This document shows positions 10,858 to 31,007 of a stretch of DNA of 32,000 nucleotides, piece by piece; within the stretch, counting starts at the first letter, position 1; the number at the start of each line of letters is the position of its first letter. A program made the translations under genes and the position numbers. The notes beneath the pieces are model-generated. The model had not been told where the DNA came from and searched no databases. It was given only the letters and a program-made list of their open reading frames with translations. Where the stretch lies: NCBI RefSeq assembly GCF_000195975.1, contig NC_005070.1, forward strand, positions 330,001-362,000, given 5' to 3'. Source of the stretch: Parasynechococcus marenigrum WH 8102. Its GTDB lineage: Bacteria; Cyanobacteriota; Cyanobacteriia; PCC-6307; Cyanobiaceae.

Positions 10858-12033
10858 TCAACGGATCCCGTAGTTCAGCCAGCGGCAATCGATACCGCCA
10901 TTGCTCACGGGGATGCGACGGCTGGCCTTAAGCCGTAAGGCACCAGTGAGGGAAGCGTTGCCGCTGAGCAACCACAGCTGCCAGCCTGATGCTTGCTCGC
11001 GCACGAAGGATCCAAGCAATCGGTAGAGCTGTTCGAGATCGTCTTCGCTACCGACGCGGTGGCCGTAGGGCGGATTGCACACCAGCAGCCCTGGCCCTGG
11101 AGGGAGTGTCTGCTGCTCAAAGCTGCCGGAATGAATGGAGATCAGTCCGTCAAGACCGGCGGCTCGGATGTTGTCGCGGGCCTGATCTGCGATCAATGGA
11201 TCCTGCTCATATCCCACGACGGGGGCCAGATCAAGGTCGGAGCGACGGCGTTGGCGAGCCCTGGCGTGTTCGCGCTCCCAAAGCTCACGATCAAAGTCGG
11301 CCCAGCCTTCCAATCCGAACTGTCGACCGAGACCTGGAGCCTGTTGCAGGGCCATCGTGACGGCTTCGATCAACAGAATTCCGCTGCCACAGAAAGGGTC
11401 CACCAGCGGCATCCGACCATCCCAGCCCGTGAGTTGAATCAGCCCAGCAGCCAGGTTCTCCTTCAACGGTGCGGCTCCCATGGCAGCGCGGTAGCCCCGC
11501 CGGTGAAGGCTGACGCCACTGCCATCCAGGCTCAGGACCGCACCACCACGGTTCAGGTGGAGATGCAGAGCCAGGTCTGGATGAGCCAGGTCGATCGACG
11601 AACGCTCTCCCCAAAGCTCCCGTTGCAGATCCACCAGAGTATTCTTCACCTGCAGCGCGGAGTAGTGGCTGTGGTTCAACCCTGGCGCTGTTCCGGTCAC
11701 GTCCACTCGGAAGCTCATCGAGGGATGCAGCCACTGCTCCCAATTCAGCGCGTTGCTGATGCCGTCGTAAAGATCAGCCCGGCCCTGACAGGGAAAAACC
11801 GCCATCTCCCTCAGCAGGCGGAACGGCAGTCGAGCTTGTAGGTGCAGCCGATAGAGGCAGGCCATGTCGGCCTGAAACGCTGCTGCCCGGCGCAGGGGCT
11901 GGACTCCATGGGCCCCCAAAGCGACTAGTTCGTCGCAGCCCAGCGTTTCCAGCCCCTGGGGCAGCACCGCCACGCCATTGAGACGGTTCCCTCGACCCAA
12001 GACCGTTGTGCTCCAGGTCACCACTGCTGTCAC
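10858..12033 (-). CDS. THUMP-domain class I SAM-dependent RNA (RlmL/RlmK-like) methyltransferase
   Basis: The 391-aa ORF has an N-terminal THUMP-like region, SAM-binding DPFCGSGILLIEA and the catalytic LLVCNPPYG motif. Confidence 0.8.
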   Translation of the reverse strand: MTAVVTWSTTVLGRGNRLNGVAVLPQGLETLGCDELVALGAHGVQPLRRAAAFQADMACLYRLHLQARLPFRLLREMAVFPCQGRADLYDGISNALNWEQWLHPSMSFRVDVTGTAPGLNHSHYSALQVKNTLVDLQRELWGERSSIDLAHPDLALHLHLNRGGAVLSLDGSGVSLHRRGYRAAMGAAPLKENLAAGLIQLTGWDGRMPLVDPFCGSGILLIEAVTMALQQAPGLGRQFGLEGWADFDRELWEREHARARQRRRSDLDLAPVVGYEQDPLIADQARDNIRAAGLDGLISIHSGSFEQQTLPPGPGLLVCNPPYGHRVGSEDDLEQLYRLLGSFVREQASGWQLWLLSGNASLTGALRLKASRRIPVSNGGIDCRWLNYGIR

Positions 12034-12039
12034 AATGAC

Positions 12040-12324
12040 AGGGTCCGGTTCACCGGACTAGGTGATCCACACCAGTGTTTCGGACAGCGGTTCGATTCCG
12101 CTCAGCTCCATTCACCCTTCCACAAGGGGCTGCAATGGTTTCGACGGGGCATGAGGAGGGTGACTGAAGCCTGCTCGGTGAGAGCAAACCCGTAACTGCG
12201 AACAACATCGTTCGTTTCTCCCGTCACGCAGCCCCTGTTGCTGCCTGACCCTTAGGGGAGATGGGGTGAAGTCAGCCTTATCACCCAAATGACTCATGGG
12301 GGCTGGAAGGCCCCTCAAACCATT
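12040..12324 (+). ncRNA. ssrA: Two-piece (circularly permuted) tmRNA gene
   Basis: The T-arm GCGG-TTCGATT-CCGC and the acceptor 3' strand CAGCTCC plus A (12103-12110) lie UPSTREAM of the 5' end GGGGCTG (12126-12132). These pair as a 7-bp acceptor stem with the G3:U wobble. The tag ORF at 12198-12248 reads GCG AAC AAC ATC GTT CGT TTC TCC CGT CAC GCA GCC CCT GTT GCT GCC TGA, giving ANNIVRFSRHAAPVAA*. AATGGTTT (12134-12141) can pair with AAACCATT (12317-12324). The outer boundaries are approximate, within about 20 nt. Confidence 0.85.
12271..12324 (+). repeat. tmRNA-proximal att-like direct repeat (copy 1), equal to the 3' end of the tmRNA coding piece
   Basis: gtcagccttatcacccaaatgactcatgggggctggaaggcccctcaaaccatt matches 24550-24603 at about 46 of 54 positions by hand alignment. 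This includes a perfect 19-nt core, acccaaatgactcatgggg. Confidence 0.85.
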
Positions 12325-12836
12325 TCACCGCAGGGGAAGACGGCATTACGCCACTTCCCAAAAATCGCGGTGATGCCATTCCTGATGCCAATATCCCGCC
12401 TGTCTTGGCGGGTATGGATAAGGCGGAGGAAAGCGGCCAGTTCGCAGTGGTGGTTGGCTGCGTCGCCCAGCTCAACAAGATGATGGCTCTAGGTGCAGAC
12501 CAGAAGGGTTTCCGTGGTCATTCGACGCACTACAACCGGCGCTAAAAAGGCATCAGCACAATTGTCCTTACCGGTGTTTCAACGCCTGCTTCCGCTGGTG
12601 CCGTTGTTCATGCTTCTTTTTGGTATCAATTAAGCCAATTGCTTTTGTTCTGTAGCTAATTTTACTCTAGCCTTGTTTTCTATATAGCTAGCACTAATCA
12701 ATTGCTTAATAAAAGCCAAAATACGTTAATCTAATTCGTAGCAATTATTGATAAAGCAATCAATTTGTATTGGTATCCATAATTTTATGGACAACTATTT
12801 TTGATCGATCAATGTATATCCAACGGATCAACTCCG

Positions 12837-17897: not shown

Positions 17898-18713
17898 TTG
17901 ATGTCTGGTCAGTACCCACCAGGAAGCGAAGGATGGCGTGACGCTCTGGACTACCCGCCAGAAACCAGGGCAGATGTATCGGAAAATCGCCGCCGGTATC
18001 TCAAGGAGGCAAAAAAATTTCGAAAGGAAAGCGATGCTTGGGAGGAAGGAAGGATCGTTGGAGTTTTCGAAAGTCAGCTCTCTGATGGTGGTTCAACCTC
18101 TAAACAGTCCAAGGAGCCGACTCCTGAAGATGTTCGCTTGGCAAAAGAGCGAGCTGAGTTCAAGGAAATGATGCAGGCCAAGCGTGAGGCCAAGCAGGTA
18201 GCTCGCGCGGCGGATGAAAAAGCGGAGTTTCGCGAGTTCATGCGCGAATGGATAGCGACCAAGTGGGATGGTGAAACTCCTGATCACCTCAAAAAAGCAC
18301 TGCCCACAGGGGATCCAAAGGATCTCGGGATGCTCATCAGCGAATGGCACTCTTACGGCGGCAGGAAGAACAACCACGCCAGTGATGCCACTTTGACTCG
18401 GTATCTTTACTTCCCTCCCGCTGACCAGAGCCCAGTAGTAGACACGCCTCCAGCGGGGTTCGTTTACTTCGTCAGGAACGAGGATCTCTTCAAAATCGGG
18501 ATTACAGAAAACATGCTGCGGAGGCTGAAGCAACTTGCGCCGGATGAGCTTCTAAATGTCGTTCGCTGCTCCAACTTCCAGGAGGTCGAACGGGAGCTGC
18601 ATCGACGTTTCAAGGATGTTCGCTTGCCTCAAACGGAGTACTTCCGGCTGAGTGATCAGCAGGTGCAGGAGGTCCACCAACTCATGGTGAAGTTGGCGGA
18701 GTTCCAGTCGTAA
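17898..18713 (+). CDS. T5orf172/MUG113 (GIY-YIG-superfamily) domain protein
   Basis: The C-terminal GFVYFVRNEDLFKIGITENMLRRLKQL...ELHRRF...EYFRL matches the T5orf172 pattern (GxVYhh....hKIGxT....RhxxL...E..hH..F....EWF). The N-terminal half is charged and coiled. Confidence 0.7.
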   Translation: MMSGQYPPGSEGWRDALDYPPETRADVSENRRRYLKEAKKFRKESDAWEEGRIVGVFESQLSDGGSTSKQSKEPTPEDVRLAKERAEFKEMMQAKREAKQVARAADEKAEFREFMREWIATKWDGETPDHLKKALPTGDPKDLGMLISEWHSYGGRKNNHASDATLTRYLYFPPADQSPVVDTPPAGFVYFVRNEDLFKIGITENMLRRLKQLAPDELLNVVRCSNFQEVERELHRRFKDVRLPQTEYFRLSDQQVQEVHQLMVKLAEFQS

Positions 18714-18886: not shown

Positions 18887-20005
18887 TTAATTTGCCGCCG
18901 GTGGAAGTGAGTTCAGCCCGCTATTAACTGCCTGCTCCAATCGTCTGGGGTTGTAAAGCGCCCCAACCGAATCGAACATCGCCAGCATCCTGGTGATCGC
19001 ATCAACATGGCCGGTGGCTTCTGAGCTGGCAGCTCTGTTTTCTGATTCCCACTGCTTGTGGCCGGAGTGGCTTAACCACTGCCACAGCTCATCACGTATC
19101 AATGAACGGGCAGCAGTTGGATTGGCGATCAGCGCATTGGCTTCTACCTTTCGCGGCCCGTACGTCTCCAGGTAGTCCTGCACATACGGGAACTTGCGGT
19201 GCTTGTGATTTGGGTTGGCCAAGTCACCACCACTGCTGGTTTCAAGACCGTCGATCCACACCAGACCGGCATTGTCCACAAACTCGGCGTTTAGCCCAAA
19301 GCGCACGATTCGACCGTCGTCAGCCATGTCTTCCAGGGAATCGTCCCAGTTCAGAACCTTGGCCAATGGCCTCAGGTTTTCAGCGATTGCGTCGGACATC
19401 TTGACCCCCATCGGATCAAGGTCGCCGCAATAAAGAACCACCGGTTCCAGTCCCTGCAACTCGGCCCAATCACATTCCTGAATCAGCGCCACCCTGCTGT
19501 TCACGTCAGCCTGGCCTTTGCTGGCAAAACGGCGGATTGCGTTGGGCAATTCCGGCTCGAACAGCTTGATCAGGTCACGTTTTTCAGTCCAGATGATCGG
19601 GAAGTACTCCTGATGCTTCCAGTAGCTGGCAGGCCAGTAATGCTTGGCTTGATCCAGCGATTCCCGCAGCTGACGGTTGATGTATTCCCGCGGGGTTTCT
19701 TCTTTGTCGTAGACGTCAGAACCAGACAGAGCACGGGTTGAATCCGCACCGACAAGTTCAAACGGAATCAGCCCTTCTTTGCGGCGATCAGCAAGCCACT
19801 TACCAGACCAAGTGAAATCGCCTTTAGTGATGATGCCTTCTGATTCCAGGGCATACAGCCAGGAGCGAGCAACAGGAGCAAAACCGAGACGCGCAACGTA
19901 TTGGCGCATCCAAGCCACTACTTCATGCATATCTGCATGAAATTGCAGTCTTTTGGCTTCACTAATCCTGCCGCTGCCCATTCGGGGTAGTGCGGTGATG
20001 ATCAC
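18887..20005 (-). CDS. Topo-VI-A/Spo11-like Toprim protein (stand-alone, mini-A or JetD-like)
   Basis: The 372-aa ORF has IIWTEKRDLIKLF (Toprim Glu, cf. vVEKdavF), VLYCGDLDPMGVKM (DxDPxG metal site) and KVEANAL (cf. ElEAL). The N-terminal ARSWLYALESEG offers a candidate RxxxY catalytic Tyr in a winged-helix-like segment. Confidence 0.55.
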   Translation of the reverse strand: MIITALPRMGSGRISEAKRLQFHADMHEVVAWMRQYVARLGFAPVARSWLYALESEGIITKGDFTWSGKWLADRRKEGLIPFELVGADSTRALSGSDVYDKEETPREYINRQLRESLDQAKHYWPASYWKHQEYFPIIWTEKRDLIKLFEPELPNAIRRFASKGQADVNSRVALIQECDWAELQGLEPVVLYCGDLDPMGVKMSDAIAENLRPLAKVLNWDDSLEDMADDGRIVRFGLNAEFVDNAGLVWIDGLETSSGGDLANPNHKHRKFPYVQDYLETYGPRKVEANALIANPTAARSLIRDELWQWLSHSGHKQWESENRAASSEATGHVDAITRMLAMFDSVGALYNPRRLEQAVNSGLNSLPPAAN

Positions 20006-20101
20006 GGGTGAAGTTGCAAAAAATGGATTACGTAGTCACCCCCAACACCCAAGAATCCAGAACTGGATAAATGGGTGAGAGGGGAATAAGGGGAGGGGTT
20101 A

Positions 20102-22072
20102 TTAGTCCGGGCGACTCGGGTTCCAGAAGGCCCTAACCCACTTGCCGGTGCCGATGCGGCGTTGGTCATAGAGCCACCCGTGATGGGTCATCAACTCCCG
20201 GATGCGTTGGGCGTTGAAGTTGTTCTGGCGTTCCGGACCGATCTCCAGGAAGTCGTAGATCTGCTGGCGCTGGACGTAAGCCGCAGTGCCCTGGCGTTTA
20301 AGCCAGTCGCCGATCAGATCCGACCACGGGTCCACGAGGTCGTAGTCGCTGTTCCTGGTGAGGATGCGATCCATCTCCTCATCGGTGCTCCACGTCTGGA
20401 GACCGTTCTGGAACTCCCGCAGTGCCTTGGTCCAGATGGCGTCTCTGGCTTCGGCGATCCGCTGAACGGGCAGCTTTTCGTCACCGACGGGGATCATCAC
20501 GAACCTGGTGGAGCCGGTGTTGTCCGTCAGCGGCGACTTGTTCGTCGTCGCGAAGAACACGGACCGCCGGTGGATCGGTTCAGTGCCTGGGGCGTACTTA
20601 CGGCGCACTAAGTCCACCCGCCTACTCAGGAAGGCTTTGAGCTTTTCCTGTTGAGTCCGGCGGGTGATGCCGTTCAGCTCGCCCAGCTCCATGCCCCACA
20701 CGAACTGGAGTCGGGTCACGTCGTCGATGTCCAGCGCGGAGGAAAGTCCGTCGCCGTAGAACTCGTGGCCGAACAGGCTCCTGCCTGCCTCCGTCTTCCC
20801 GATCCCCTGGCCGCCAAGAATGCACGGGGTCTGACGTTGCTGGCAGCCGGGGACTTTGACCCTGGCCACGGCGCTGGTCAGATACCGAGGCATGAATGCG
20901 TCGGCGATGGGGTCGTCGACGTTGAACAGGAAGCGACCCAGATGATTCCAGTCCTCATCAGGCAGGGGGTCCGCCGAGAGGTTGGACAGGTAGACATCCA
21001 CGGGATCGAACTGATGCTCGTGAGCCAGCTCAATAAACGCATCGCGAGCGATCTTCTGGCTCCACCGGTTGGGGCTCGGTGGCATCGACAGGCGGAGGTA
21101 GAGGTTCTCCGTCTGGGTCGCCGTGGCCTCTGCACCGTTGATGTGGATGCCGCGGCTTCGCAGGTTCAGTCGGGGTACATCGCCCAGCTGCTCAGCCATC
21201 AATTTGAGGGCGTCGCCTGCCTGGACTTTCTTTTGACGTAAATCCTGTTGCTCCACATGGATCCGGAACACCGCGGCGTTGCCAACGGCTGTCTCGCGAT
21301 CACCGCAGTAGGCCCAGGTGACCCCTCCCTTAACGACCGTCTCGCCCTTGGCCATCACCGGTGGCGACCAACGCTTGCCGTAGTGGCAGAGGATCACCTT
21401 CCCGTCGGCGGATTGGCGGCAATCAGGTTCTGTGCGCCCACAGATCGGGCAAGGGATGGCGTCATGCCAATCCCCGACCTGTTTATGGGATCGCCTGTTT
21501 TCCGTCTTGGCCATGGCCTTTTGCCATAACGCCCACCAGTCATCGGGGATGGGGGCGATCCGCTCCGGATTGCGCTGGGTCCAGACGTATTCGCCGCCAG
21601 ATTGGCGGTGCTCGCCGGCAACGATGCACTGGCCTGTGGACCAGAAGATCTCGACCTTCTCGTTCCCGTCGGCCTTCACCTCGCATTTGCCTGGAAGGTG
21701 TTCCCACCGTTCCTTTGGCACTCTGAAGAAGAGCTTGTAGCGGTTGGAATCGGTATTCCGACCAACCATCCAGGTGACCGGCTGGTGCTCGATCCCCATC
21801 CTGATCAGCTCGCTGATGGCACTGAGCCCATCGATGTCGAAGCAGACGATGCCGCCTGCGTCAGGGCCTAGGCGTGTGCCGACACACAGGACCTTTGGTC
21901 CCATTGCCGCGATCTCATCGGGAGTGAACGACATGTGTTGCCAGCCCTTCGCACCGAAGCCAGTGGAGGGATCAATGGGCGCCTTGAACTTTTCCCCTGC
22001 ACCACAGGGGATGAGAGGGAGGCCAGTGAGCTGCGGGAGCAGCTTCTGCCTCCAGTTGCTGACTGGTTTCAT
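20102..22072 (-). CDS. Bifunctional primase-polymerase (prim-pol) / zinc ribbon / VirE-D5-type P-loop helicase
   Basis: The 656-aa ORF has the N-terminal prim-pol pattern LPLIPCGAGEKFKAP...GWQ...VGTRLG...IVCFDIDG. Its central part is CPICGRTEPDCRQSADGKVILCHYG. Its C-terminal part has Walker A GGQGIGKTE and WGMELGEL, typical of VirE-family ATPases. Confidence 0.85.
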   Translation of the reverse strand: MKPVSNWRQKLLPQLTGLPLIPCGAGEKFKAPIDPSTGFGAKGWQHMSFTPDEIAAMGPKVLCVGTRLGPDAGGIVCFDIDGLSAISELIRMGIEHQPVTWMVGRNTDSNRYKLFFRVPKERWEHLPGKCEVKADGNEKVEIFWSTGQCIVAGEHRQSGGEYVWTQRNPERIAPIPDDWWALWQKAMAKTENRRSHKQVGDWHDAIPCPICGRTEPDCRQSADGKVILCHYGKRWSPPVMAKGETVVKGGVTWAYCGDRETAVGNAAVFRIHVEQQDLRQKKVQAGDALKLMAEQLGDVPRLNLRSRGIHINGAEATATQTENLYLRLSMPPSPNRWSQKIARDAFIELAHEHQFDPVDVYLSNLSADPLPDEDWNHLGRFLFNVDDPIADAFMPRYLTSAVARVKVPGCQQRQTPCILGGQGIGKTEAGRSLFGHEFYGDGLSSALDIDDVTRLQFVWGMELGELNGITRRTQQEKLKAFLSRRVDLVRRKYAPGTEPIHRRSVFFATTNKSPLTDNTGSTRFVMIPVGDEKLPVQRIAEARDAIWTKALREFQNGLQTWSTDEEMDRILTRNSDYDLVDPWSDLIGDWLKRQGTAAYVQRQQIYDFLEIGPERQNNFNAQRIRELMTHHGWLYDQRRIGTGKWVRAFWNPSRPD

Positions 22073-22088
22073 GCGAGGGGGGTGCTCC

Positions 22089-22352
22089 TCAAACCGTCAG
22101 CGGCGCGGTGTCTCTGCCGAAGGTTTCAACCTCCGCCGAAGACTCCCGCTTGTGGTTCCACAGGCTTTGGATTGCCTGCTCCTTGTTCCATCTGACCTTG
22201 CGAGTGCCGAGGCCGATGAACTGCCAATCCCGGTGCTGTTGGAAAGGACCGTTGGGGTCCCGCCGCATCCGAAGAATTGTCTCTGGACTGAGCTGAGCCG
22301 CCTGGGCGACTTCAGCGGTTGTGGACGCAATTTCCATTTCGAGGGCACGCAC
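22089..22352 (-). CDS. Small HTH protein, excisionase/AlpA-like regulator
   Basis: It has the HTH TTAEVAQAAQLSPETILRM and the start may be ATG at 22337. It is clearly homologous to 31316..31528 in element 2 (shared ..DW......R..L.WN.E.A......W.........VETF). It sits immediately upstream of the primase gene. Confidence 0.55.
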   Translation of the reverse strand: MRALEMEIASTTAEVAQAAQLSPETILRMRRDPNGPFQQHRDWQFIGLGTRKVRWNKEQAIQSLWNHKRESSAEVETFGRDTAPLTV

Positions 22353-22354
22353 CC

Positions 22355-22615
22355 TCAGGTGCGCGGGGTGCCATCCCAGTTCTCATGGTGCAGAAGTTCC
22401 GCCTGGAGCTTGGCCATGAAGTTGGCCTTTTTGTCCCGGCGTCCCTGATCAGGATTGCCTTTGTCAAGCGTTCCAATAGAGAAGCCCTCGTCTAGTCGCA
22501 CCCGCGCGCGGGTGAAATAGCGAACAAGACGTTCCAGGTGCTGACGTTCATGACCCTCAGGCCAATGAGTCAAGCGACCAGGACGAATCGGAATTGGGCG
22601 ATCAGGACCTTGCAT
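22355..22615 (-). CDS. Hypothetical protein
   Basis: Met-36 version of tracked ORF 22355..22720. Its stop lies 2 nt from the start of the next gene, consistent with an operon. Confidence 0.35.
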   Translation of the reverse strand: MQGPDRPIPIRPGRLTHWPEGHERQHLERLVRYFTRARVRLDEGFSIGTLDKGNPDQGRRDKKANFMAKLQAELLHHENWDGTPRT

Positions 22616-22812
22616 CCAGCAGGGATGACGTGTTCGGTTTGATCCCCCGGAGGCAGACGCGCTGCTGCTGTTCCGACATCTCGAAGGCAACGTAACACCA
22701 CTGATCGGGATCGTCAGCAAATTTCCCCACCGATGCCACTACGGATGGTGTCAGCAGCTGGAAGTGTCTAGAGCAGTTGGGAGAGGTTGCAAGGATTGAA
22801 TAAATCTATGCC

Positions 22813-22862
22813 GATAATGATTATCATTCTTTTGTGCCAATAATGAGAATTATTCTTATACT
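22813..22862 (+). promoter_or_regulatory. Two Fur/Zur-type boxes overlapping a candidate promoter of the metallothionein gene
   Basis: Box 1 is GATAATGATTATCATT (22813-22828), with the perfect core AATGA-TTA-TCATT. Box 2 is AATAATGAGAATTATTC (22839-22855). A candidate -35 ttgtgc lies at 22832-22837 and a -10 tatact at 22857-22862. Confidence 0.55.
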
Positions 22863-22915
22863 TTAGGCCGCTTATTGGTCTAGTGTTGTGGCTGAAAATT
22901 GCCTGGCCACATCAA

Positions 22916-23086
22916 ATGTCTACAGCAATCAAATGTGCATGCCCTAAGTGCACCTGTATGGTCGCAGAAGAGAGCGCAATTGTTCTTCAAGGTAAGTTCT
23001 TTTGCTCGACGTCCTGTTCAACAGGGCATGCCAATAATGAGCCCTGTCATGGCGAAGGCTCTTGTGGATGTAAGTGCGGAGAGTAA
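22916..23086 (+). CDS. bmtA: Bacterial metallothionein (SmtA/BmtA family)
   Basis: The 56-aa protein is MSTAIKCACPKCTCMVAEESAIVLQGKFFCSTSCSTGHANNEPCHGEGSCGCKCGE. Its Cys/His spacing follows SmtA (KCACxxCxCxV....AI...G..yCS..C..GH......C......C.C). Confidence 0.85.
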   Translation: MSTAIKCACPKCTCMVAEESAIVLQGKFFCSTSCSTGHANNEPCHGEGSCGCKCGE

Positions 23087-23144
23087 TCGGGGCGGTGGCC
23101 AGGCATGGCGGTGCTTTAAGCCCGCCTTCAACGTTGGGGTGGTG

Positions 23145-24425
23145 TCAGGGCAGCGGGATCGTGCCGGTCTTGGCGGCGAAGTCGCGGGTCCTCATCCCCA
23201 GGGTCATGGTCCGATAGCTGTGCGAGTGCACCGCTTCGCTGTGGCCCATCGCGTCGCAGATCGACGCCACCGGCACTCCCTCTCGGTGGCAGCGGATCGA
23301 GTAGGTGTCCCGAAAGCTGTAGGGCCGCAACCACTCGCTCGGATCCTGTTTGTCGTAGTGCTCCACCAGCTCTGCCCAATAGATCTGAACCGCACCGCTG
23401 GGCTTGCCTGTCGATCGTGACTTCCGGTGGATGTAGCAGTTCACCGCGCTCCCAGAGAGCTTGCGGACATCACCATCCCTGCCGGTGGGCAGCTGCAAGG
23501 TTCCGTCGGCCATCGCCTGCTCCAGGGGCCACACCACCGGCTGATCGTTGCCGTCGCGGATGTACATCGCTTCCAGGAAGCGGGGATCGGTTTCCTCTTC
23601 ACCGCCGGTCTTCCTGTAATTGCACCAGATGGCTGGCTTGCCGGTCACCGGGTTGACTCGGCTGCTCAGATGCTGAAGCTCGATGGGTCTTAAACCAAAT
23701 TGCGTCAATAGTCGGAACACGTTGCCCCACCTGACGTTTACCGAGTCGGCCAGCTCAATCAGGCGCAGCATCTCTAGGTCGTCCAGCACCGCTTTAAGCC
23801 TCGGCTTCGGTGCCTTGGGGATCAGCTCGTCCTTGTCGAACTCGGTGATCAGCCAGCTCGCTGGGGCCTTGTGCCGGGACACCGCGAACTGCATAAACAG
23901 GCCGAGGTAGCGGCCGCACTCCACCTTCATCGTGGGAGCCCCTTCCCAGTTCTTCAGAGCCTCCTTCAACAGGCCATAGCCGTCGTGGGCCTTGCCGGTG
24001 TTGATGAGCCTCACGGCGTAGTCGATGAATGGCCGCCAGTTCTTCCGGAAGGTGTGGGCGCTGCACTTCTGCGACTGCTGCACCCGGGACGCCTCCATTG
24101 CGTCTGCGATTTGTGCCCATGTTTTGGCCTTCTCCTCTCCTTGGAGATCGCTTGTGTCGTGAGCGTCGGCGACTGCTGCCTTCAGCGTTTTCTCGCCGTT
24201 GTCCCACGCCTTGTAGACCGCCTCAATCCACCGGATGGCGTTGCGGTGGTGCACCTCATCCCAGGTGTTGGGCCGCGGCAAGTAGGCGGTCTCTGCGGGG
24301 CGGCCACGCTTCCTGACGCGCAGCACGATCCGGTCGCGGACGCGGGAGATGCTCCAGCCGTTCCAAGGCTCAGTTGTCTCGACCAGGCGCTGTTCCCACC
24401 GGGGGCGCGAGTCATCCGGAGCCAA
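23145..24425 (-). CDS. int: Tyrosine site-specific recombinase (integrase)
   Basis: The 426-aa ORF has the C-terminal catalytic region LRPIELQHL...(R), YSFRDTYSIRC (HxxR-type box), and DAMGHSEAVHSHSYR (H...Y). The annotated start is TTG and is not certain. Confidence 0.9.
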   Translation of the reverse strand: MAPDDSRPRWEQRLVETTEPWNGWSISRVRDRIVLRVRKRGRPAETAYLPRPNTWDEVHHRNAIRWIEAVYKAWDNGEKTLKAAVADAHDTSDLQGEEKAKTWAQIADAMEASRVQQSQKCSAHTFRKNWRPFIDYAVRLINTGKAHDGYGLLKEALKNWEGAPTMKVECGRYLGLFMQFAVSRHKAPASWLITEFDKDELIPKAPKPRLKAVLDDLEMLRLIELADSVNVRWGNVFRLLTQFGLRPIELQHLSSRVNPVTGKPAIWCNYRKTGGEEETDPRFLEAMYIRDGNDQPVVWPLEQAMADGTLQLPTGRDGDVRKLSGSAVNCYIHRKSRSTGKPSGAVQIYWAELVEHYDKQDPSEWLRPYSFRDTYSIRCHREGVPVASICDAMGHSEAVHSHSYRTMTLGMRTRDFAAKTGTIPLP

Positions 24426-24429
24426 TGGA

Positions 24430-24453
24430 GTGATGCCAAAAGTGATGCCAAAA
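24430..24453. repeat. Perfect tandem 12-mer x2 (gtgatgccaaaa) abutting the integrase start
   Basis: Read directly at 24430-24441 and 24442-24453. It lies 5 nt upstream of the int start on the minus strand. Confidence 0.85.
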
Positions 24454-24549
24454 AGATCCTATTCAGTCGTTCTCTGTCGTCAAGGGTTGCCAACAGACCA
24501 GGGCTCTGACTATGTTCTGCCCGTGATCGTTGTTTCCGTAAGGAAAGCA

Positions 24550-24603
24550 GTCAGTTGTATTACCCAAATGACTCATGGGGCCTGGAAGGGCCCTTCAACC
24601 ATT
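24550..24603 (+). repeat. Distal att-like direct repeat (copy 2): an orphan copy of the tmRNA 3' end
   Basis: gtcagttgtattacccaaatgactcatggggcctggaagggcccttcaaccatt is the partner of 12271-12324. No tmRNA body lies upstream of it. Confidence 0.85.
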
Positions 24604-24891
24604 GCCAATACTTGAGTCACGGATGCGACTAGGCCGAGATTTTGGAGCTGCGACCCAGGGTGTGACCCGAAGGTCGTCGTTTTAGGGCTAAGTGACCCAT
24701 GCGGGGTCACAGAGGACTGCTGCGGAAACCTGCTGAATCTTGGAGAAGTTGGTAGAAGTCAAGTGAGCACAAGGGTAGAAGCCTTTCTTTTGTTATTGCA
24801 AGACAATAAAATAAGGGCGGTGCATCACTCCGCCCCTAGGAATCACCAACATCTATAGATGAGAGATCTGCTCCTTTAGTTTAGTTCAACG

Positions 24892-25059
24892 ATGCCTAAA
24901 CGTACACTTCCTGTCTATGTGGAAATGGTGCTTTCTCAAATACTGCAAGAGTCAGCATTAGAGAAGCAATCAATTGATGATGATTGTCCCTCAGTCCCGC
25001 AGGGCTGCCCTCTTTCCACCCCCCAAAGCCGTCTTACTGCAGTTGAGGTTAACCAATGA
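24892..25059 (+). CDS. Hypothetical small protein (55 aa, not in ORF track)
   Basis: The ATG at 24892 opens MPKRTLPVYVEMVLSQILQES.... Its TGA overlaps the ATG of the next ORF (ATGA at 25056-25059), suggesting translational coupling. Confidence 0.35.
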   Translation: MPKRTLPVYVEMVLSQILQESALEKQSIDDDCPSVPQGCPLSTPQSRLTAVEVNQ

Positions 25060-25454
25060 TTGATTTAGATCAGGCCATTGATCAGTCCTATCGAGAAGCA
25101 TCTGATGCTGAGGCTGTTGCCCGGCGCTTAGAAGCCAGGATTGAGCAGATTCCAGGTGCACAAGGGTTGCTCCCCCGCAGAAAATATGGAACGCCCGTGA
25201 ACTTCAAGGCGATCCAAGAAAATCTCACCTTGGCCTCGTTGATTACACAGGCTGATGCAGCACTAGCGAACTACTGCGGGCTGGATGCCTCGGTGAAGCG
25301 CCGCATGGATGAAGAGAGGGAGGCTCAAAAGCTTCGTGTTGAGGCTTTGAGGATGCGCACAGAGTGCCTGAGGGAGGCCAACGAACGTGCTGCCAAGACT
25401 CGCGAGCAGCAGCTCGTCAGTGGCATCAACCCCATGACTGGGAGGTACTTCTGA
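25056..25454 (+). CDS. Hypothetical coiled-coil protein
   Basis: 132-aa ORF. It is coupled to both neighbours by overlapping stop and start codons. Confidence 0.5.
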   Translation: MIDLDQAIDQSYREASDAEAVARRLEARIEQIPGAQGLLPRRKYGTPVNFKAIQENLTLASLITQADAALANYCGLDASVKRRMDEEREAQKLRVEALRMRTECLREANERAAKTREQQLVSGINPMTGRYF

Positions 25455-25801
25455 TGCTTGCTCGGCCGCACCCTTGCCTTGGTTGGCTCCATTGCCAACC
25501 ACAGGACAGCAGACGACTTCTCGATCGACAGCTAACCCATCGCGATCATGTGCTGGAGGCTGACCCAAGCTTCAGCGGTATGCCAGCGAGCTTCGTTGAG
25601 GAGACCTGGGTCGACTGGTTGCCGAAGGCTGTCGCTCAACCCTTCTACAGAGACCAGCTCACCGCCCATGTTGCAGAGCTGGAACGCCAAATCTCCAACC
25701 TCAGCCGGGAGATTGAACTGCAGTCCGGCGGCCTGCTCGATCAACGAGATGCAGCTGTGGATCTCAGGCAACGTCTCAAGCATCTGCTGGAGACCTCATA
25801 A
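25454..25801 (+). CDS. Hypothetical protein
   Basis: Met-31 version (MLARPHP...) of tracked ORF 25364..25801. Its ATG overlaps the upstream TGA (TGATG). Confidence 0.45.
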   Translation: MLARPHPCLGWLHCQPQDSRRLLDRQLTHRDHVLEADPSFSGMPASFVEETWVDWLPKAVAQPFYRDQLTAHVAELERQISNLSREIELQSGGLLDQRDAAVDLRQRLKHLLETS

Positions 25802-25840
25802 CCCTGGTCAACCATCAGTTTCCAGACGCACCCGATACCG

Positions 25841-26032
25841 ATGCCAAACATTCTTGATCACGTCTCACAAGCACCAGTCCTTGAAATAGACGTCTGGCCA
25901 CGCTCAGCAACACGCAAAGAATGGTTCGCCATCACGCGACGCATTATTCAAGACACCATCGCTGACATGAACCTCGATCCTGCTGCTGAAGCAGAAATGA
26001 TCGATGCCTTTACTGGTGCTGGGCTGCTGTGA
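25841..26032 (+). CDS. Hypothetical small protein
   Basis: 63-aa ORF, last in the co-directional cluster. Confidence 0.35.
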   Translation: MPNILDHVSQAPVLEIDVWPRSATRKEWFAITRRIIQDTIADMNLDPAAEAEMIDAFTGAGLL

Positions 26033-26380
26033 CAGTCCGCTGGTGACTCCTTACGCGTAACGGCCCTGTCCTGTTCAAGCGGTGGCTGTATGGCGGCATC
26101 CAAGACCTAGGAAAACCAGCAGTGACGGAGCTGCTGCTGGATTGTATTGACCCGTTCATTTGTTAAGTTGAGCGGGACAGGATGGTGGCGTGGCACCTAG
26201 GCGTGAGCTTCTAGTTTGAAGCGGCATTGAACCACGCGCATCCAGCATTTGGGGGAGAAGAAGCCCTTATATTGATTGATATATCACTCAGTAATTGATG
26301 AGCCAAGATGAGCTAGGTATCACTTAATGCAATTCTTAGATTAATGGAATGCTATTCTTAGTTTATCGCTATACAAGTCA

Positions 26381-27640
26381 ATGGCAATTTTAGCATGGGA
26401 AGACATTTCAGGGGACAAATTTATTCATACATTCGATTTACATCGAAAAATTCCTAATGCAAAAAATCCTGAACCTGATTGCCCGGTTGAAATAGAAGCG
26501 TCGGAGTCTAATAAAAATGCGGCTGGTTATATATCATTTATCGGCGATAGTTTGTTGGATATGGTAGATCCCTCGGCTTTGGAGTCCAATTTGTACGGTT
26601 CACCTAGATCGTACGGTGGTGACACTGCCAGTAATTGTTCAATCCAAATGCAATTAATGGGTAAAGGTTATGACATTGGCGAAAATGCAGCCAAGGGCAG
26701 TGCTGTGATTGGCCAAGCCGCGGTGGACTGGGCGTTGAGTTCGGAGGGACTATCACTAGCAAATATTAGCGACCTATATGATACATTAAAAAATAGCTTA
26801 TCAGATGATAAATTTGACACACTAATGATTTCAGGTGGTATAGGAAATGTACTTAATATCCCGGATGGCGAGAATCCGGTCGACTGGTCGAATCAGGCTG
26901 CGGATCAGATGGAGAGCCTCATAAATTCAATATTAGCGGATAACCTTTGGAGTAAAATCGTAATAGTAGGATATGCAATAAGTGCAACACATCCACGCAA
27001 TTTTATACAAATACTCCACAATAAATTTAGTTACTTAGCTGAAAATAATAGTAAAGTAGAATTTATTAATACCGATTATCTTTATGACCAACGTGCTGGT
27101 GGCGATGCAGTTTTGCGTGAATCATTATTCGGTGGTGATGGAAATCACGGTGGTGTTGAAGGACACAGGCTTGTAGTAGAGAGCTTTGATACTTTGCAGG
27201 GGCTGCAACTAAAACCCGCACCAGAGCCAGAGGAATACGACAGCATCATTGAATCGGTTCTTGGCAAGGGCAAATTAAAAGGAACGACGGGTGCAGATGC
27301 CTTCACTTTTGATTCCTTTGAAGCATTCACAAAGAAATCTGCTGATAAGATCATTGGATTTAATGCGTCGCAAGGAGACACAATTGCTGTCGGTCCCAAT
27401 GCGTTCCCTTCCTTGCAAGGTGTCTCCGATATCAGCTTTGCATCGACTAGGAGCAAGAAGGAATTCAAGCAAATGTCCAAGGAGGATTACGACTTTGTAT
27501 ATTTTGAGAAGAAAGGTCGCCTCTACTTCGATGGAAATGGCGCAGAGAAGAACTGGGGCAACAGTAGTGAGGGAGGTCTTGTGGCAATCCTGAAAGGAAA
27601 GCCTGAGCTAACTGCTGAAGACATAACACTGTTGGCTTGA
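26381..27640 (+). CDS. GDSL/SGNH-family hydrolase with RTX-like (T1SS-type) C-terminal region
   Basis: The 419-aa AT-rich ORF has SGNH block I FIGDSLLD, block III-like GGIGNV and block V DGNH. The C-terminus (GTTGADAFTFDS...DKIIGFNASQGDTIAV...GRLYFDGNG...LVAILKGKPELTAEDITLL) follows the pattern seen at the ends of RTX/T1SS substrates. Confidence 0.6.
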   Translation: MAILAWEDISGDKFIHTFDLHRKIPNAKNPEPDCPVEIEASESNKNAAGYISFIGDSLLDMVDPSALESNLYGSPRSYGGDTASNCSIQMQLMGKGYDIGENAAKGSAVIGQAAVDWALSSEGLSLANISDLYDTLKNSLSDDKFDTLMISGGIGNVLNIPDGENPVDWSNQAADQMESLINSILADNLWSKIVIVGYAISATHPRNFIQILHNKFSYLAENNSKVEFINTDYLYDQRAGGDAVLRESLFGGDGNHGGVEGHRLVVESFDTLQGLQLKPAPEPEEYDSIIESVLGKGKLKGTTGADAFTFDSFEAFTKKSADKIIGFNASQGDTIAVGPNAFPSLQGVSDISFASTRSKKEFKQMSKEDYDFVYFEKKGRLYFDGNGAEKNWGNSSEGGLVAILKGKPELTAEDITLLA

Positions 27641-27663
27641 CAAAGCTTTAACGCTGAACACCA

Positions 27664-28044
27664 ATGGCAATCACCACCAGAGCACAACGACAACAACGCC
27701 GTAACGAGGCTCTACAGCTGATTAGCAGTGGTGTCCCGCCAACTGACGCTGCGTCTCAGTTGACTGTGAAGTGGGGGTGCAGCAGGCGAACGAGTCTGCG
27801 TGACATAGAAATCGCGCAGAGTGAACTAGCGAACGCCTTGGACTCGGTTGAGCTTCAGCAGATGGTGGGTTGGTTGGCGACGCAATATCAACGTCTAGCC
27901 GCCAAAGCTGAACGCGATGGTCAGTATTCAGCAGCCGTTGGTGCTCTGAATGCGTTGAGAGCAATGGTTGTGCAGCCACAACTGGATGCGCAGTTTGCTG
28001 CTCACTTCCGTGGCCGGTTTACGCACCATTCCTACCGGCGGTGA
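27664..28044 (+). CDS. HTH DNA-binding protein, TerS-like architecture (counterpart of 14450..14815)
   Basis: The 126-aa ORF has ASQLTVKWGCSRRTSLRDIEIA (HTH) and a later helix YSAAVGALNALRAMVV. It is alignable by eye with the element-1 protein. Confidence 0.5.
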   Translation: MAITTRAQRQQRRNEALQLISSGVPPTDAASQLTVKWGCSRRTSLRDIEIAQSELANALDSVELQQMVGWLATQYQRLAAKAERDGQYSAAVGALNALRAMVVQPQLDAQFAAHFRGRFTHHSYRR

Positions 28045-28375
28045 TATGGCAATCTTCGGGGCTTGCTCAATGCCCCATGGATTACAAGGATTTTTGCCTC
28101 ACCTGTCTGGTTACGTTGGCGGCCATCAACACGGTGCTGAATGTGCGCGCTCTTCGAAGACGCTGAGCTGCGGCAAAGGAGCAAAGGCCAGTTTGTCAGT
28201 GCCACTCCGATCTCACTGGCCGGTTGAGTCTCAAGATTGCTGGACTCGATTTGGACGTGATGGAGGTTGTCTCGTCGCATCCCATTCCCGTCTCAGTCGC
28301 CGGGACCCCTGGCCCCGCAGGGCCGGAGTCTCAACGGATCAGCTGGACTGTCCTGCGTCACTGTGTTTGTGGCCG

Positions 28376-28537
28376 TTACGCAGCACTGTCTCCCATCAGT
28401 TCTGAAACGCTGGGCATCGGGTCTGGCTTGCCATCGGCAATGGCTCGAGCGCGGAGGTAGAACCAGCTTTCCGTGTCGCCCTTGGCTTCCATGCTTTCGG
28501 CGATGGTCTGCCAGTTGTTGATTTCGGCTTGGTCCAT
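28376..28537 (-). CDS. Hypothetical small protein (53 aa, not in ORF track)
   Basis: MDQAEINNWQTIAESMEAKGDTESWFYLRARAIADGKPDPMPSVSELMGDSAA has a natural-looking composition, unlike the overlapping Arg-rich tracked ORFs. It lies downstream of the RepA-like gene on the same strand. Confidence 0.3.
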   Translation of the reverse strand: MDQAEINNWQTIAESMEAKGDTESWFYLRARAIADGKPDPMPSVSELMGDSAA

Positions 28538-28626
28538 AGGGGGTGAGTCTTTGAAAAGATCCCCGGGCTCTCACCTCCGGGGACTGTTGTACGTCTTCTC
28601 GCAGCTCCGCAAGAGACGGCAGAAAA

Positions 28627-30171
28627 CTAAGAACCTTGATCTGGATCTGTCGGTTCGGATGACCGACGCCCAGCCTTGTTCTTGCATTCCCGGCTGCAGA
28701 AAATCTTTGGCCGCCCACGCTTGTTGGCCGGGAAAGTCGTCCCGCACTCAGGACACTCCCGTTCTTCTGTGGCATCGGACTTTTCGGACCTTTCGGACGG
28801 TGGCTCTGAGGCCGGCGGCGAAACAGGGTCCGATATGTCCGATACATCCGTAGCTGGGAAGAAGGGCAGCACTGCGTCGACCGGTCTGAACAATCTGGTC
28901 GGCTGACCCCTGCCACCACCTCGTGCCGGGCGTTCCCGGTCGAACTGGATCAACTTCTTCTGTAGAAGCGCATCCATCACTTCCTTTGACCGCTTTCGAT
29001 CCAGGTCAAGCGCAGCGCCCAGGTGCGGCCGATCCACACCCAGCTGGGTGGTGACCCAGTGATGGGTCATGTCTCTGAGGGCATCACTTTGCCGCTCGGT
29101 GAGTTTGTCGAGGATTTCCTCCATCGCCTGCTGCCGGGCAACCTCTGCAGCGGAGCCATGGCTGATCCAGTTGAAGCCTTCATCGACTTGCTCGATCAGC
29201 AGATCCAATGGCCTGCCAGCACGGCCTTCAGTTGTGAGCTTGACCCGATAGTCCGCCGGGGCCAACGGGTTGTCCCCTGGGTCAGAGACCCACGCCAGGC
29301 TCACGGTCTGACTCACTGCTGCCGGGAGAGCAGTGGTTCCACGAGAGGCGCTGGAGGCCCGGCCCTTTGCCGAGTGACGGTTGCTGTGGTGAATGACGAT
29401 CAGGCTTGCGTCGTACGGAGCGATCGCTTCCTGCAGATCTATCAGTGGGTCGGCATAGCTGTTCGACTTCTCCTCCAGGCCCAGCGCAGCGGTGGCCGCG
29501 GCGTAAGAATCCAAAAGGATGATCAGGCTGGAGAAGTCCCTGCAGAACTCCACGATCTGATCGATGCCACCTTCGTCCAGGTGCAGGGGACAGCCCTTGT
29601 GAAATACGCCAACGACGGCGTCGACGAGGTTCCCCTCGGGATCACTCAGCCCTGCGCGGACCAAACACTCTTGCCAGTCGTCTTCGGTTTGATCCGGGCC
29701 GACGATCAAGATCAGCGGCTCCGATGCCGGTAGCGCGTGACCCAGGAATGAATGGTCCCCGCGCCGGATCCGGCCGAGCACCATCGTCATCAGCCGCGAC
29801 TTTCCTACCTTCGGCAAAGCGATCACGAGTGTGGTGGTCGCTGCCATCACCACACCTGTCCATAACCATCGGGCCTTGGAGAGCTTGAGCTTCCCGCCGC
29901 GTGGCACCGGCGTTGCCGCACCAGCCAGCTCCCGGCGGGCATCCCACAGGTACTGCTTCAGCTCTTGGTTGGAGAACTCAGCTTCGTAATCACGGGCGGC
30001 ATCCTTTATGTGAATCATCCGATCCCTCGATCCGATGGAGTCGTCGATGACGATTTCCTTGGCCTTCGACTTGATTCGTTTGATGTCAGCGGCCGGGCCG
30101 AAGCCGACAGCGGCAGGACCGGTGCCGTTCTTCAGCTCTGCGCTGAGGTTTGGATGCTGTTGTTCTGCCAT
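28627..30171 (-). CDS. RepA-like (AAA_25/RecA-fold) replicative ATPase with C-terminal zinc ribbon
   Basis: It has Walker A ALPKVGKSRL, Walker B LIILLDSYAAA and IVIHHSNRH. The C-terminus is CPECGTTFPANKRGRPKIFCSRECKNKAGRR. Start taken at MAEQQH, whose ATG overlaps the upstream stop by 1 nt. Confidence 0.7.
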   Translation of the reverse strand: MAEQQHPNLSAELKNGTGPAAVGFGPAADIKRIKSKAKEIVIDDSIGSRDRMIHIKDAARDYEAEFSNQELKQYLWDARRELAGAATPVPRGGKLKLSKARWLWTGVVMAATTTLVIALPKVGKSRLMTMVLGRIRRGDHSFLGHALPASEPLILIVGPDQTEDDWQECLVRAGLSDPEGNLVDAVVGVFHKGCPLHLDEGGIDQIVEFCRDFSSLIILLDSYAAATAALGLEEKSNSYADPLIDLQEAIAPYDASLIVIHHSNRHSAKGRASSASRGTTALPAAVSQTVSLAWVSDPGDNPLAPADYRVKLTTEGRAGRPLDLLIEQVDEGFNWISHGSAAEVARQQAMEEILDKLTERQSDALRDMTHHWVTTQLGVDRPHLGAALDLDRKRSKEVMDALLQKKLIQFDRERPARGGGRGQPTRLFRPVDAVLPFFPATDVSDISDPVSPPASEPPSERSEKSDATEERECPECGTTFPANKRGRPKIFCSRECKNKAGRRSSEPTDPDQGS

Positions 30172-31004: not shown

Positions 31005-31007
31005 GGA

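What the first reader, a model, noticed from the sequence alone, without database searches (positions are those of the whole stretch)
22813..23086. Metallothionein bmtA with tandem Fur/Zur boxes carried between the integrase and the replication module
A textbook SmtA/BmtA-type metallothionein is preceded by two Fur-family operators (GATAATGATTATCATT and AATAATGAGAATTATTC). One lies upstream of the candidate -35 and one overlaps the spacer and -10. The gene is wedged, on the opposite strand, inside the lifecycle module of a mobile element. As I recall, Zur has been reported to control bmtA and zinc quota in marine Synechococcus. Here the zinc-buffering gene and its host-regulon operators appear horizontally mobile. 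The dual box geometry (one upstream, one core) could give both activation and repression.
Basis: partly seen in the sequence, partly recalled or inferred. Interest (0 to 1): 0.7.

Follow-up and report, generated by a model that had tools for sequence, protein, structure and literature searches.

The report
Known zinc-regulated metallothionein gene, on a mobile element
This is the already published, experimentally characterised zinc-sensor (Zur)-activated metallothionein gene bmtA (SYNW0359) of the marine cyanobacterium Synechococcus WH8102.

Summary
Eight window proteins were looked up and seven match Synechococcus (Parasynechococcus marenigrum) WH8102 exactly. BmtA is SYNW0359 and the neighbouring integrase is SYNW0360. 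Both 23-nt boxes, and their distances from the ATG, are identical to the two WH8102 Zur boxes of Mikhaylina et al. 2022. That paper showed Zn-dependent Zur binding and 16-125-fold Zur-dependent activation of bmtA.

The mobile-element reading also holds:
- The gene lies in a 12.3-kb element integrated at the tmRNA gene, resembling a tycheposon, with att repeats at 12270-12326 and 24549-24605.
- It sits between a distal integrase and an orf121-orf87-PrimPol/helicase-topoisomerase module.
- Three relatives of that module (81-94% integrase identity) lack bmtA.

In WH8102, bmtA occupies a 394-bp insertion flanked by 12-nt direct repeats at the integrase stop codon. The 276-bp unit from box 1 to the bmtA stop recurs in islands at tmRNA, tRNA-Arg(TCT) and tRNA-Ala(GGC). 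It is 77-79% identical between two strains whose core flank is 96% identical.

The suggested dual activation and repression has no support, because expression plateaus at high zinc. Interest is low to moderate.

The parts
12021..12339 (+). tmRNA (ssrA) gene. Its 3' part (12270-12326) is the attL copy of the element's attachment repeat.
   Evidence: ARAGORN finds the gene. A direct repeat, 85% identical, links 12270-12324 to 24549-24603, and the alignment is.
18887..20005 (-). Topoisomerase-like ORF (372 aa) at the end of the replication module.
   Evidence: It matches phrog_6247 (DNA topoisomerase) at E = 6.4e-33.
20102..22072 (-). PrimPol + VapE-type primase/helicase (SYNW0356).
   Evidence: Pfam matches are PF09250 at 5.9e-11 and PF05272 at 1.3e-45. 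PHROGs gives helicase/primase families. The protein is an exact match to CAE06871.1.
22089..22352 (-). orf87 (CAE06872.1), a small protein conserved in the module and a possible excisionase or regulator.
   Evidence: It is syntenic in L010-L014. The only family signal is a non-significant HTH_17 hint at E = 0.12. UniRef names it 'DNA-binding protein'.
22355..22720 (-). orf121, conserved next to the integrase in related elements.
   Evidence: tblastn gives 72-100% identity in L012, L013 and L014. It has no family match.
22743..22754 (+). Left 12-nt direct repeat GGATGGTGTCAG bounding the 394-bp insertion.
   Evidence: Boundary alignments are and the pattern search. The cassette-free locus L010 has a single copy.
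22747..22800 (+). Remnant (codons 39-55 plus stop) of a small ORF, here called X, that is intact upstream of bmtA in other loci.
   Evidence: tblastn with the L003 X protein gives 94% identity over 17 aa.
22811..22833 (.). Distal Zur box (box 1), core AATGATTATCATT at 22816-22828, abutting the -35.
   Evidence: It is identical to the published WH8102 box aaaagaatgataatcattatcgg, read as reverse complement. It scores 35.0 bits with the weight matrix and is an exact consensus match.
22834..22862 (+). Candidate promoter: -35 GTGCCA, 17-nt spacer, -10 TATACT.
   Evidence: The consensus scan gives 9 of 12 matches. This agrees with the description of Fig. 4c in PMC9337993. No transcription start site has been mapped.
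22837..22859 (.). Proximal Zur box (box 2), core AATGAGAATTATT at 22842-22854, in the promoter spacer.
   Evidence: It is identical to the published WH8102 box ataagaataattctcattattgg, read as reverse complement. It scores 24.5 bits. A box at the same position is present in 14 of 14 related loci.
22863..22883 (+). Conserved stem-loop (TAGGCC-N7-GGTCTA core) directly after the -10, probably the 5' end of the bmtA mRNA.
   Evidence: 87.5% of cells pair against 25-52% in slid controls, and 3 of 6 pairs have compensatory changes, in 8 sequences.
22916..23086 (+). bmtA coding sequence (SYNW0359, 56 aa plus stop).
   Evidence: Pfam PF02069 is matched above its cut-off. The protein is an exact match to CAE06874.1. 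Cys/His positions align with SmtA.
23089..23146 (+). Two further fragments of X-family coding sequence (GGGQAWRC..., then L*ARLQRWGGV, which corresponds to X residues 30-40).
   Evidence: tblastn is, and the donor-like locus L016 is compared.
23137..23148 (+). Right 12-nt direct repeat GGGTGGTGTCAG. It contains the integrase stop codon (23145-23147).
23145..24425 (-). Tyrosine recombinase/integrase (SYNW0360), convergent with bmtA and facing into the element from its distal end.
   Evidence: The Pfam PF00589 match is weak at 20.5 bits, below the 27.1 cut-off. PHROGs integrase families match. The protein is an exact match to CAE06875.1, named 'Weak similarity to phage integrase family'. The search returned 68 homologues.
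24549..24605 (+). attR: the displaced partial copy of the tmRNA 3' end.
   Evidence: The same remnant lies next to the integrase in L010 and L013.

Best explanation
This is the bmtA (SYNW0359) locus of Synechococcus sp. WH8102.

How it works (established in published experiments). When intracellular free Zn2+ rises into the femtomolar range, zinc-loaded Zur dimers bind the two operators. One abuts the -35 and the other lies in the -35/-10 spacer. Binding activates bmtA transcription. The metallothionein then buffers the zinc that accumulates. The same Zur represses znuABC at slightly lower zinc. How a Fur-family protein activates from these positions is not known.

What the comparison adds (inferred here). 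The operators, promoter and gene form a self-contained 276-bp module. In WH8102 this module sits inside a 394-bp insertion flanked by 12-nt direct repeats, at the stop codon of the integrase of a 12.3-kb tmRNA-integrated, tycheposon-like element. The most likely route of entry is recombination at a short sequence shared with a small ORF (X) that precedes bmtA in donor-type loci. Zur belongs to the core genome, so the module would be correctly regulated in any recipient strain.
For: Identity of the locus:
- Seven of the eight window proteins looked up are exact matches to WH8102 entries, including CAE06874.1 (BmtA) and CAE06875.1 (integrase).
- Both boxes and their offsets from the ATG (57-79 and 83-105) equal the published WH8102 entries.

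Published function (PMC9337993):
- EMSA shows Zn-dependent SynZur binding to the bmtA promoter, with one and then two dimers bound.
- bmtA transcripts are 125-fold lower in the zur mutant at 772 nM Zn and 16-17-fold induced by zinc in the wild type.
- The dissociation constants for the two promoters are 1.8-7.0 fM free Zn.

Statistics: the two boxes are the top two weight-matrix scores in the window.

Element:
- tmRNA gene and att repeats.
- The order int-orf121-orf87-PrimPol is conserved in L010-L014.
- Hallmark genes are present.

Insertion:
- L010 joins window 22762 directly to 23136, with a single copy of the repeat.
- L012 and L013 also lack bmtA.
- L016 shows the arrangement X-boxes-bmtA-partial X, and the window carries exactly one unit of it.

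Module portability:
- Homology with RS9915, BOUM118 and CP047956 starts at box 1 (22813) and ends at the bmtA stop (23088), at 77-79% identity. The core flank is 96% identical to BOUM118.
- bmtA lies in islands at tmRNA, tRNA-Arg(TCT) and tRNA-Ala(GGC).
- The proximal box is present in 14 of 14 loci and the distal box in 12 of 14, at fixed offsets.
Against: - The activation mechanism is unexplained: a box in the spacer would normally repress.
- No transcription start site has been mapped, so the -35/-10 assignment rests on consensus only.
- Insertion and deletion cannot be told apart. L010 could be a deletion product of recombination between the flanking repeats.
- No excised circle of the element or of the cassette was seen.
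- No copy was found in IMG/VR viral contigs or in phage genomes.
- The weight matrix was built from homologous bmtA promoters, so it is not independent of common descent. The Zur boxes of znuA in the same genome could not be retrieved.
Confidence: 0.85

Rival explanations
1. Occupancy of the distal box activates, and additional occupancy of the spacer box at higher zinc represses. bmtA expression would then be bell-shaped.
For: Box 2 lies between the -35 and -10, the classic repressor position. Ferguson analysis shows one dimer bound at low Zur and two at high Zur.
Against: RT-qPCR shows the same 16-17-fold induction at 772 nM and 2.5 uM Zn, with no decline. The proximal box is the more conserved of the two, present in 14 of 14 loci. 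Strains with only that box (A18-46.1) still carry it at the same offset. That pattern fits a primary positive role better.
Confidence: 0.1
2. The boxes are generic Fur-family operators used mainly by the iron regulator Fur, so that bmtA is iron-regulated.
For: GATAATGATTATCATT matches 15 of 19 positions of the E. coli Fur-box consensus GATAATGATAATCATTATC. The consensus is recalled from my own knowledge and the count is by my own reading of the sequence.
Against: SynZur binds this promoter in a Zn-dependent way, and the zur mutant loses induction. The sequences match the cyanobacterial Zur consensus NTNANAATGATNATCATTNTNAN at 14 of 16 and 13 of 16 specified positions (consensus; counted by reading the sequence).
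Confidence: 0.05
3. bmtA is not cargo that moves with the element. It is an ordinary island gene placed next to the integrase by random island rearrangement, and it spreads, if at all, only by homologous recombination of flanking island DNA.
For: In BOUM118, RS9915, CP047956, CP047960 and A18-46.1, bmtA lies among small island ORFs without the int-PrimPol module. The flanking repeat is only 12 nt. No circle or viral copy was found.
Against: In WH8102 and in an independent metagenome contig (L014, 99.56% identical over window 19842-24603), bmtA lies inside the att-bounded element between syntenic module genes. It would therefore move whenever the element does. The breakpoints are exact at the repeat.
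Confidence: 0.3

Closest known systems
Zur-activated bmtA (synw0359) of Synechococcus sp. WH8102 (Mikhaylina et al. 2022, PMC9337993; Zur boxes first noted by Barnett et al. 2012, PMC3323870)
   Same: It is the same locus. The BmtA and integrase proteins are identical. The two Zur boxes are identical and lie at the same offsets. The description of the geometry is the same, and so is the neighbour described as having 'weak similarity to phage integrase'.
   Different: Nothing differs in the regulatory part. The papers do not analyse the mobile-element context. In the main text 'island' occurs 0 times and 'integrase' once.
Tycheposons (Hackl et al., bioRxiv 10.1101/2020.12.28.424599; Synechococcus examples in Grebert et al. 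2022, PMC8995045)
   Same: - Integration at the tmRNA gene, one of the seven Prochlorococcus tycheposon sites, leaving a partial tRNA-like remnant.
- An inward-facing tyrosine recombinase at one end, and at the distal end as described for Synechococcus.
- An adjacent small replication module (primase/helicase, topoisomerase).
- Niche-related cargo. Zinc homeostasis is a listed cargo class.
   Different: - Whether this integrase belongs to the tycheposon-specific recombinase lineage was not tested.
- The cargo gene sits inside the integration/replication module rather than in a separate cargo block.
- Metallothionein has not been reported as tycheposon cargo in the searchable library.
- bmtA is absent from Prochlorococcus.
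SmtA/SmtB system of Synechococcus PCC 7942
   Same: The metallothionein fold family is the same. PF02069 is matched, the protein is 41% identical to SmtA, and the Cys/His ligand positions are conserved.
   Different: Control is by activation through Zur (Fur family) rather than derepression of an ArsR/SmtB repressor. Marine strains lack SmtB.
Zur as activator of zitB in Streptomyces coelicolor and of XC2976 in Xanthomonas
   Same: A Zn-loaded Zur activates a gene that handles excess zinc.
   Different: Those cases involve oligomerisation upstream of the promoter. The published Ferguson analysis found no oligomerisation beyond two dimers here.

Membership tests
Prokaryotic metallothionein BmtA/SmtA (PF02069) | Sequence match to the family profile above the curated threshold | tested here: met
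   48.2 bits against a cut-off of 33, E = 1.2e-12, covering residues 2-52 of 56.
Prokaryotic metallothionein BmtA/SmtA (PF02069) | Conserved Cys/His metal ligands of the Zn4 cluster | tested here: met
   In the alignment with SmtA, C7, C9, C12, C14, C30, C34, H38, C52 and C54 are invariant.
Prokaryotic metallothionein BmtA/SmtA (PF02069) | Binds zinc | not testable with these tools
   Zinc binding is inferred in PMC9337993 from zinc quotas. No binding assay could be run here.
Cyanobacterial Zur regulon operator | Match to the Zur-box consensus above background | tested here: met
   Box 1 is an exact match and box 2 has 2 mismatches to the core AATGATNATCATT. They are the top two weight-matrix scores in 32 kb.
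Cyanobacterial Zur regulon operator | Zn-dependent binding by Zur, and Zur-dependent expression | not testable with these tools
   Shown experimentally for this same DNA in PMC9337993 by EMSA, RNA-seq and RT-qPCR.
Cyanobacterial Zur regulon operator | Similarity to the znuA operator of the same genome | not tested
   The znuA promoter sequence was not retrievable.
Tycheposon | Integration at one of the island-associated tRNA/tmRNA genes, with a partial gene copy at the far end | tested here: met
   tmRNA gene at 12021-12339 and a 57-nt repeat at 24549-24605.
Tycheposon | Inward-facing tyrosine recombinase at one end, with a small replication module next to it | tested here: met
   The order is int, orf121, orf87, PrimPol/VapE, topoisomerase-like.
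Tycheposon | Integrase belongs to the tycheposon-specific tyrosine-recombinase lineage | not tested
   No reference tycheposon integrase sequences were available. The Pfam match is weak at 20.5 bits, below the cut-off.
Tycheposon | Evidence of excision or mobility | tested here: inconclusive
   A 99.56% identical copy occurs in a metagenome contig that ends at attR. Related modules sit at the same tmRNA site in another genome. No circular junction was seen.
Integron gene cassette | IntI-type integrase with attI, and cassettes ending in attC hairpins | tested here: not met
   The match to NF040815 is only 21.9 bits against a cut-off of 220. The cassette 3' region folds no better than shuffled sequence, z = 0.32. 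The boundaries are 12-nt direct repeats.

The most novel reading that the evidence does not exclude
Two linked readings are not excluded by the evidence.

(1) The Zur-box-bmtA unit is a discrete cassette that moves between tRNA/tmRNA islands and elements. It would do so through a circular or one-unit intermediate that recombines at the GGGGTGGTGTCAG core inside the small ORF X.

(2) In WH8102 the zinc-activated bmtA promoter fires, with no terminator, into the 3' end of the convergent integrase gene 58 bp away. The published 'co-regulation' of synw0360 by Zur and zinc would then be antisense read-through. That read-through could couple zinc status to integrase expression and so to the stability of the element.
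Probability: 0.3. Interest if true: 0.55.

Novelty: already known. Interest (0 to 1): 0.3.

Why it matters
The regulatory finding itself adds nothing to Mikhaylina et al. 2022.

The context analysis adds a modest point. A zinc-storage trait that sets the zinc quota of an abundant ocean phototroph is packaged with its own operators for a core-genome sensor, so it can work on arrival. It sits in hypervariable tRNA/tmRNA islands and, in WH8102, inside a probably mobile element.

This helps explain two things. One is the patchy distribution and copy number of bmtA among Synechococcus clades. The other is the otherwise puzzling Zur/zinc regulation of an integrase gene, for which it offers a testable explanation.

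Tried and rejected
- **Exact look-up of BmtA** by the look-up of encoding contigs found nothing. The cluster look-up later identified it as WH8102 CAE06874.1.
- **The first homology search with BmtA** returned only two proteins, because the word index handles a 56-aa query poorly.
- **The genome-contig scan** gave only one marine locus.
- **IMG/VR viral contigs and GenBank phages** contain no bmtA relative, so a phage-borne origin is unsupported.
- **ORF X, orf121 and orf87** match no Pfam or NCBIfam family.
- **An integron-type cassette** was considered and rejected.
- **An intrinsic terminator** between bmtA and the integrase was sought and not found.
- **A site for the adjacent integrase at the cassette junction** was considered. 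The junction core and the left edge of the att repeat share only (A/T)GTCAG, which is too short to count as evidence.
- **A weak Zur-like site at 24968-24990** (9.2 bits) was considered as a sense promoter signal for the integrase. It lies beyond attR, 543 bp upstream of the integrase start, and I take it to be chance.

Full report
**Observation.**
- GATAATGATTATCATT lies at 22813-22828 and AATAATGAGAATTATTC at 22840-22856.
- A 56-codon ORF follows at 22916-23086. It matches Pfam PF02069 (prokaryotic metallothionein) at 48.2 bits, above the cut-off of 33.
- The ORF keeps the Cys/His positions of SmtA.
- Box 1 is the only exact match in the window to GATAATNATTATC and to the cyanobacterial Zur core AATGATNATCATT. 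Box 2 matches the core with two mismatches. Chance expectation with up to two mismatches is 0.3 and 0.7 hits per window.
- A weight matrix built from 25 published bmtA Zur boxes of other strains ranks the two sites first and second in 32 kb, at 35.0 and 24.5 bits. The next unrelated site scores 13.1.
- A consensus scan gives a -35 (GTGCCA) at 22834-22839, a 17-nt spacer and a -10 (TATACT) at 22857-22862. Box 1 therefore abuts the -35 and box 2 fills the spacer.

**Identity of the locus.** Eight window proteins were looked up and seven are exact matches to entries of Parasynechococcus marenigrum (Synechococcus sp.) WH8102.
- BmtA is CAE06874.1.
- The integrase is CAE06875.1, named 'Weak similarity to phage integrase family'.
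- The PrimPol/VapE protein is CAE06871.1, labelled SYNW0356.

Supplementary Table 6 of Mikhaylina et al. 2022 (PMC9337993) lists two Zur boxes for WH8102. Their reverse complements equal window 22811-22833 and 22837-22859 at 23/23 positions each. The tabulated positions (83-105 and 57-79 of the 150 bp upstream of the gene) equal the window distances from the ATG. The finding is therefore the published synw0359 locus.

**What is already known about it.** Barnett et al. 2012 had already noted two Zur boxes upstream of SYNW0359. Mikhaylina et al. 2022 then showed the following:
- SynZur binds the bmtA promoter only when zinc-loaded, as one dimer and then two.
- bmtA transcripts are 125-fold lower in the zur mutant at 772 nM Zn.
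- The wild type induces bmtA 16-17-fold at both 772 nM and 2.5 uM Zn.
- znuABC is repressed at slightly lower free zinc. The two dissociation constants are 1.8 and 7.0 fM.
- One box overlaps the -10 and -35 elements and the other lies beyond the -35.
- The neighbouring gene synw0360 is co-regulated with bmtA.
[quoted passage not shown] **The mobile element.**
- GC content falls from about 0.63-0.68 in the core genes (accC, SMC, RlmL) to 0.42-0.56 from 12 kb onwards.
- A tmRNA gene lies at 12021-12339. Its 3' part (12270-12326) is repeated at 24549-24605. These repeats bound a 12.3-kb element.
- The integrase (23145-24425, -) faces into the element from the distal end, next to the tmRNA remnant. 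Grebert et al. 2022 describe this layout for tycheposon-like insertions in Synechococcus. tmRNA is one of the seven tycheposon attachment genes in Prochlorococcus.
- After the integrase come orf121, orf87, a PrimPol/VapE primase-helicase and a topoisomerase-like ORF.
- The same order, int-orf121-orf87-PrimPol, is found in relatives with 81-94% integrase identity (L010/L011, L012, L013). In L010 it lies in the island beside the same RlmL-tmRNA site.
- A metagenome contig (L014) carries the WH8102 arrangement at 99.56% identity and ends at attR.

**bmtA is an insertion in that module.**
- None of L010-L013 encodes BmtA.
- L010 joins window 22762 directly to 23136.
- In WH8102 the intervening segment is bounded by GGATGGTGTCAG (22743-22754) and GGGTGGTGTCAG (23137-23148), 394 bp apart. 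L010 has a single copy at the junction. The right copy contains the integrase stop codon.
- The left end of the insertion encodes the last 17 codons of a small ORF, called X here (55-56 aa, no family match). X is intact upstream of bmtA in L002, L003, L019 and L026, and present with a frame disruption in L001 and L016.
- The right end encodes X residues 30-40, ending at the same WGGV codons.
- L016 shows the likely donor arrangement: X, Zur boxes, bmtA, partial X. The WH8102 insertion equals exactly one unit between equivalent points of the two X copies.
- This pattern is what a single crossover between a circle (or a one-unit copy) and a 12-13-nt target would leave. Deletion in L010 by recombination between the repeats is equally possible, so the direction of the event is not established.

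**The gene and its operators travel together.**
- In clade III strains RS9915 (L028), CP047956 (L027) and BOUM118 (L029), the upstream neighbour of bmtA is not X. It is a divergent homologue of window orf126 (27664-28044).
- Homology to the window begins exactly at box 1 (22813) and ends at the bmtA stop (23088).
- This unit is 77-79% identical between those strains and WH8102, whereas the core flank 6716-12327 is 96% identical to BOUM118. The WH8102 cassette is closer to L003 and L016, at 90-91%.
- bmtA lies in islands at three kinds of attachment gene:
  - tmRNA, in WH8102, BOUM118 and CP047960;
  - tRNA-Arg(TCT), in CP047956 (with a 31%-identical integrase about 1 kb away) and A18-46.1;
  - tRNA-Ala(GGC), in the YX04-3 MAG, between capsid-like and phage-OMP-like genes.
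- It also occurs at other positions, in CP047931 and RS9915.
- Across 14 loci with enough upstream sequence, the proximal box core starts 69-74 nt before the ATG in all 14. The distal box starts 95-100 nt before it in 12. This agrees with the published table.
- No paper in the searchable library links metallothionein to tycheposons or discusses the island context of synw0359/0360.

**A possible explanation for the co-regulated integrase.** bmtA and the integrase are convergent. Their stop codons are 58 bp apart, and no terminator-like hairpin lies between them. The region folds no better than shuffled sequence, z = 0.32. The published libraries were strand-specific, but the featureCounts settings are not stated. 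Read-through from the zinc-activated bmtA promoter into the antisense strand of synw0360 is therefore a simple and untested explanation for the reported co-regulation.

**Verdict.** The core is already known, for this very strain. The comparative result is a modest extension of known kinds (Zur regulon, tycheposon-like islands). That result comprises a 276-bp self-regulated module, a 394-bp repeat-flanked insertion at the integrase stop codon, and several island contexts.

Noticed in passing
window 22863-22883 (and 22884-22913): A conserved stem-loop (TAGGCC-N7-GGTCTA core) lies directly after the -10 of bmtA. In 8 related promoters 87.5% of cells pair and 3 of 6 pairs show compensatory changes, for example TAGAGC/GCTCTA in L019. 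It could be a 5'-terminal mRNA hairpin or a second palindromic operator. A second predicted hairpin precedes the ATG.
   Followed up: partly
window 22747-22800 and 23089-23146; L003 2159-2326; L002 5726-5896; L016 635-801 and 1113-1190: A small ORF family, called X here (55-56 aa, motif RWGG..W.RLE.LG), has no Pfam or NCBIfam match. It lies immediately upstream of bmtA in most non-clade-III loci. Fragments of it flank bmtA in WH8102, L003 and L016, as if X sequences were the recombination substrates.
   Followed up: partly
window 15263-15361 and 16492-16590: A 99-nt direct repeat (75% identical) flanks the lowest-GC stretch of the element (GC about 0.42) and a 276-aa ORF (15482-16312) that has no family match. 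It may be another cassette-like insertion.
   Followed up: no
window 24606-32000: Low-GC island DNA continues beyond attR. It includes orf63 (25841-26032) and orf126 (27664-28044), which are neighbours of bmtA in other strains. It also includes an AAA_25/HNH-like protein (28627-30198; phrog_30286 at E = 3e-77). This looks like an older element remnant in a tandem array.
   Followed up: partly
L001 8569-10536 (Synechococcus sp. YX04-3 MAG): bmtA with both Zur boxes sits between a Phage_capsid gene and a Phage_OMP gene in a tRNA-Ala(GGC) island that also carries an AAA_25 protein. This would be a PICI-like element carrying cargo, which Hackl et al. say they never observed in Prochlorococcus.
   Followed up: no
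P0001, P0002, P0072 (BmtA homologues): Several NCBI records name 56-aa BmtA homologues 'conjugal transfer protein TrbI'. This is an apparent annotation error that has propagated among Synechococcus genomes.
   Followed up: no
window 13315-13929 and 17898-18713: The cargo of the element includes a secreted-type SNase/Excalibur nuclease and a T5orf172/MUG113 (GIY-YIG-like) protein. Both have weak PADLOC matches, to C3a212 and PDC-S57, so a defence role is possible.
   Followed up: partly
window 24968-24990 and 27066-27088: Two weaker Zur-box-like sites score 9.2 and 13-14 bits, above the 99.9th percentile of the window. The first lies 543 bp upstream of the integrase start, beyond attR. The second lies inside ORF 26381-27640. 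Both are probably chance.
   Followed up: no
window 1759-1841: A tRNA-Leu(GAG) gene is overlapped by the mechanically listed ORF 1677-3122, so the start of that ORF is probably an artefact.
   Followed up: no
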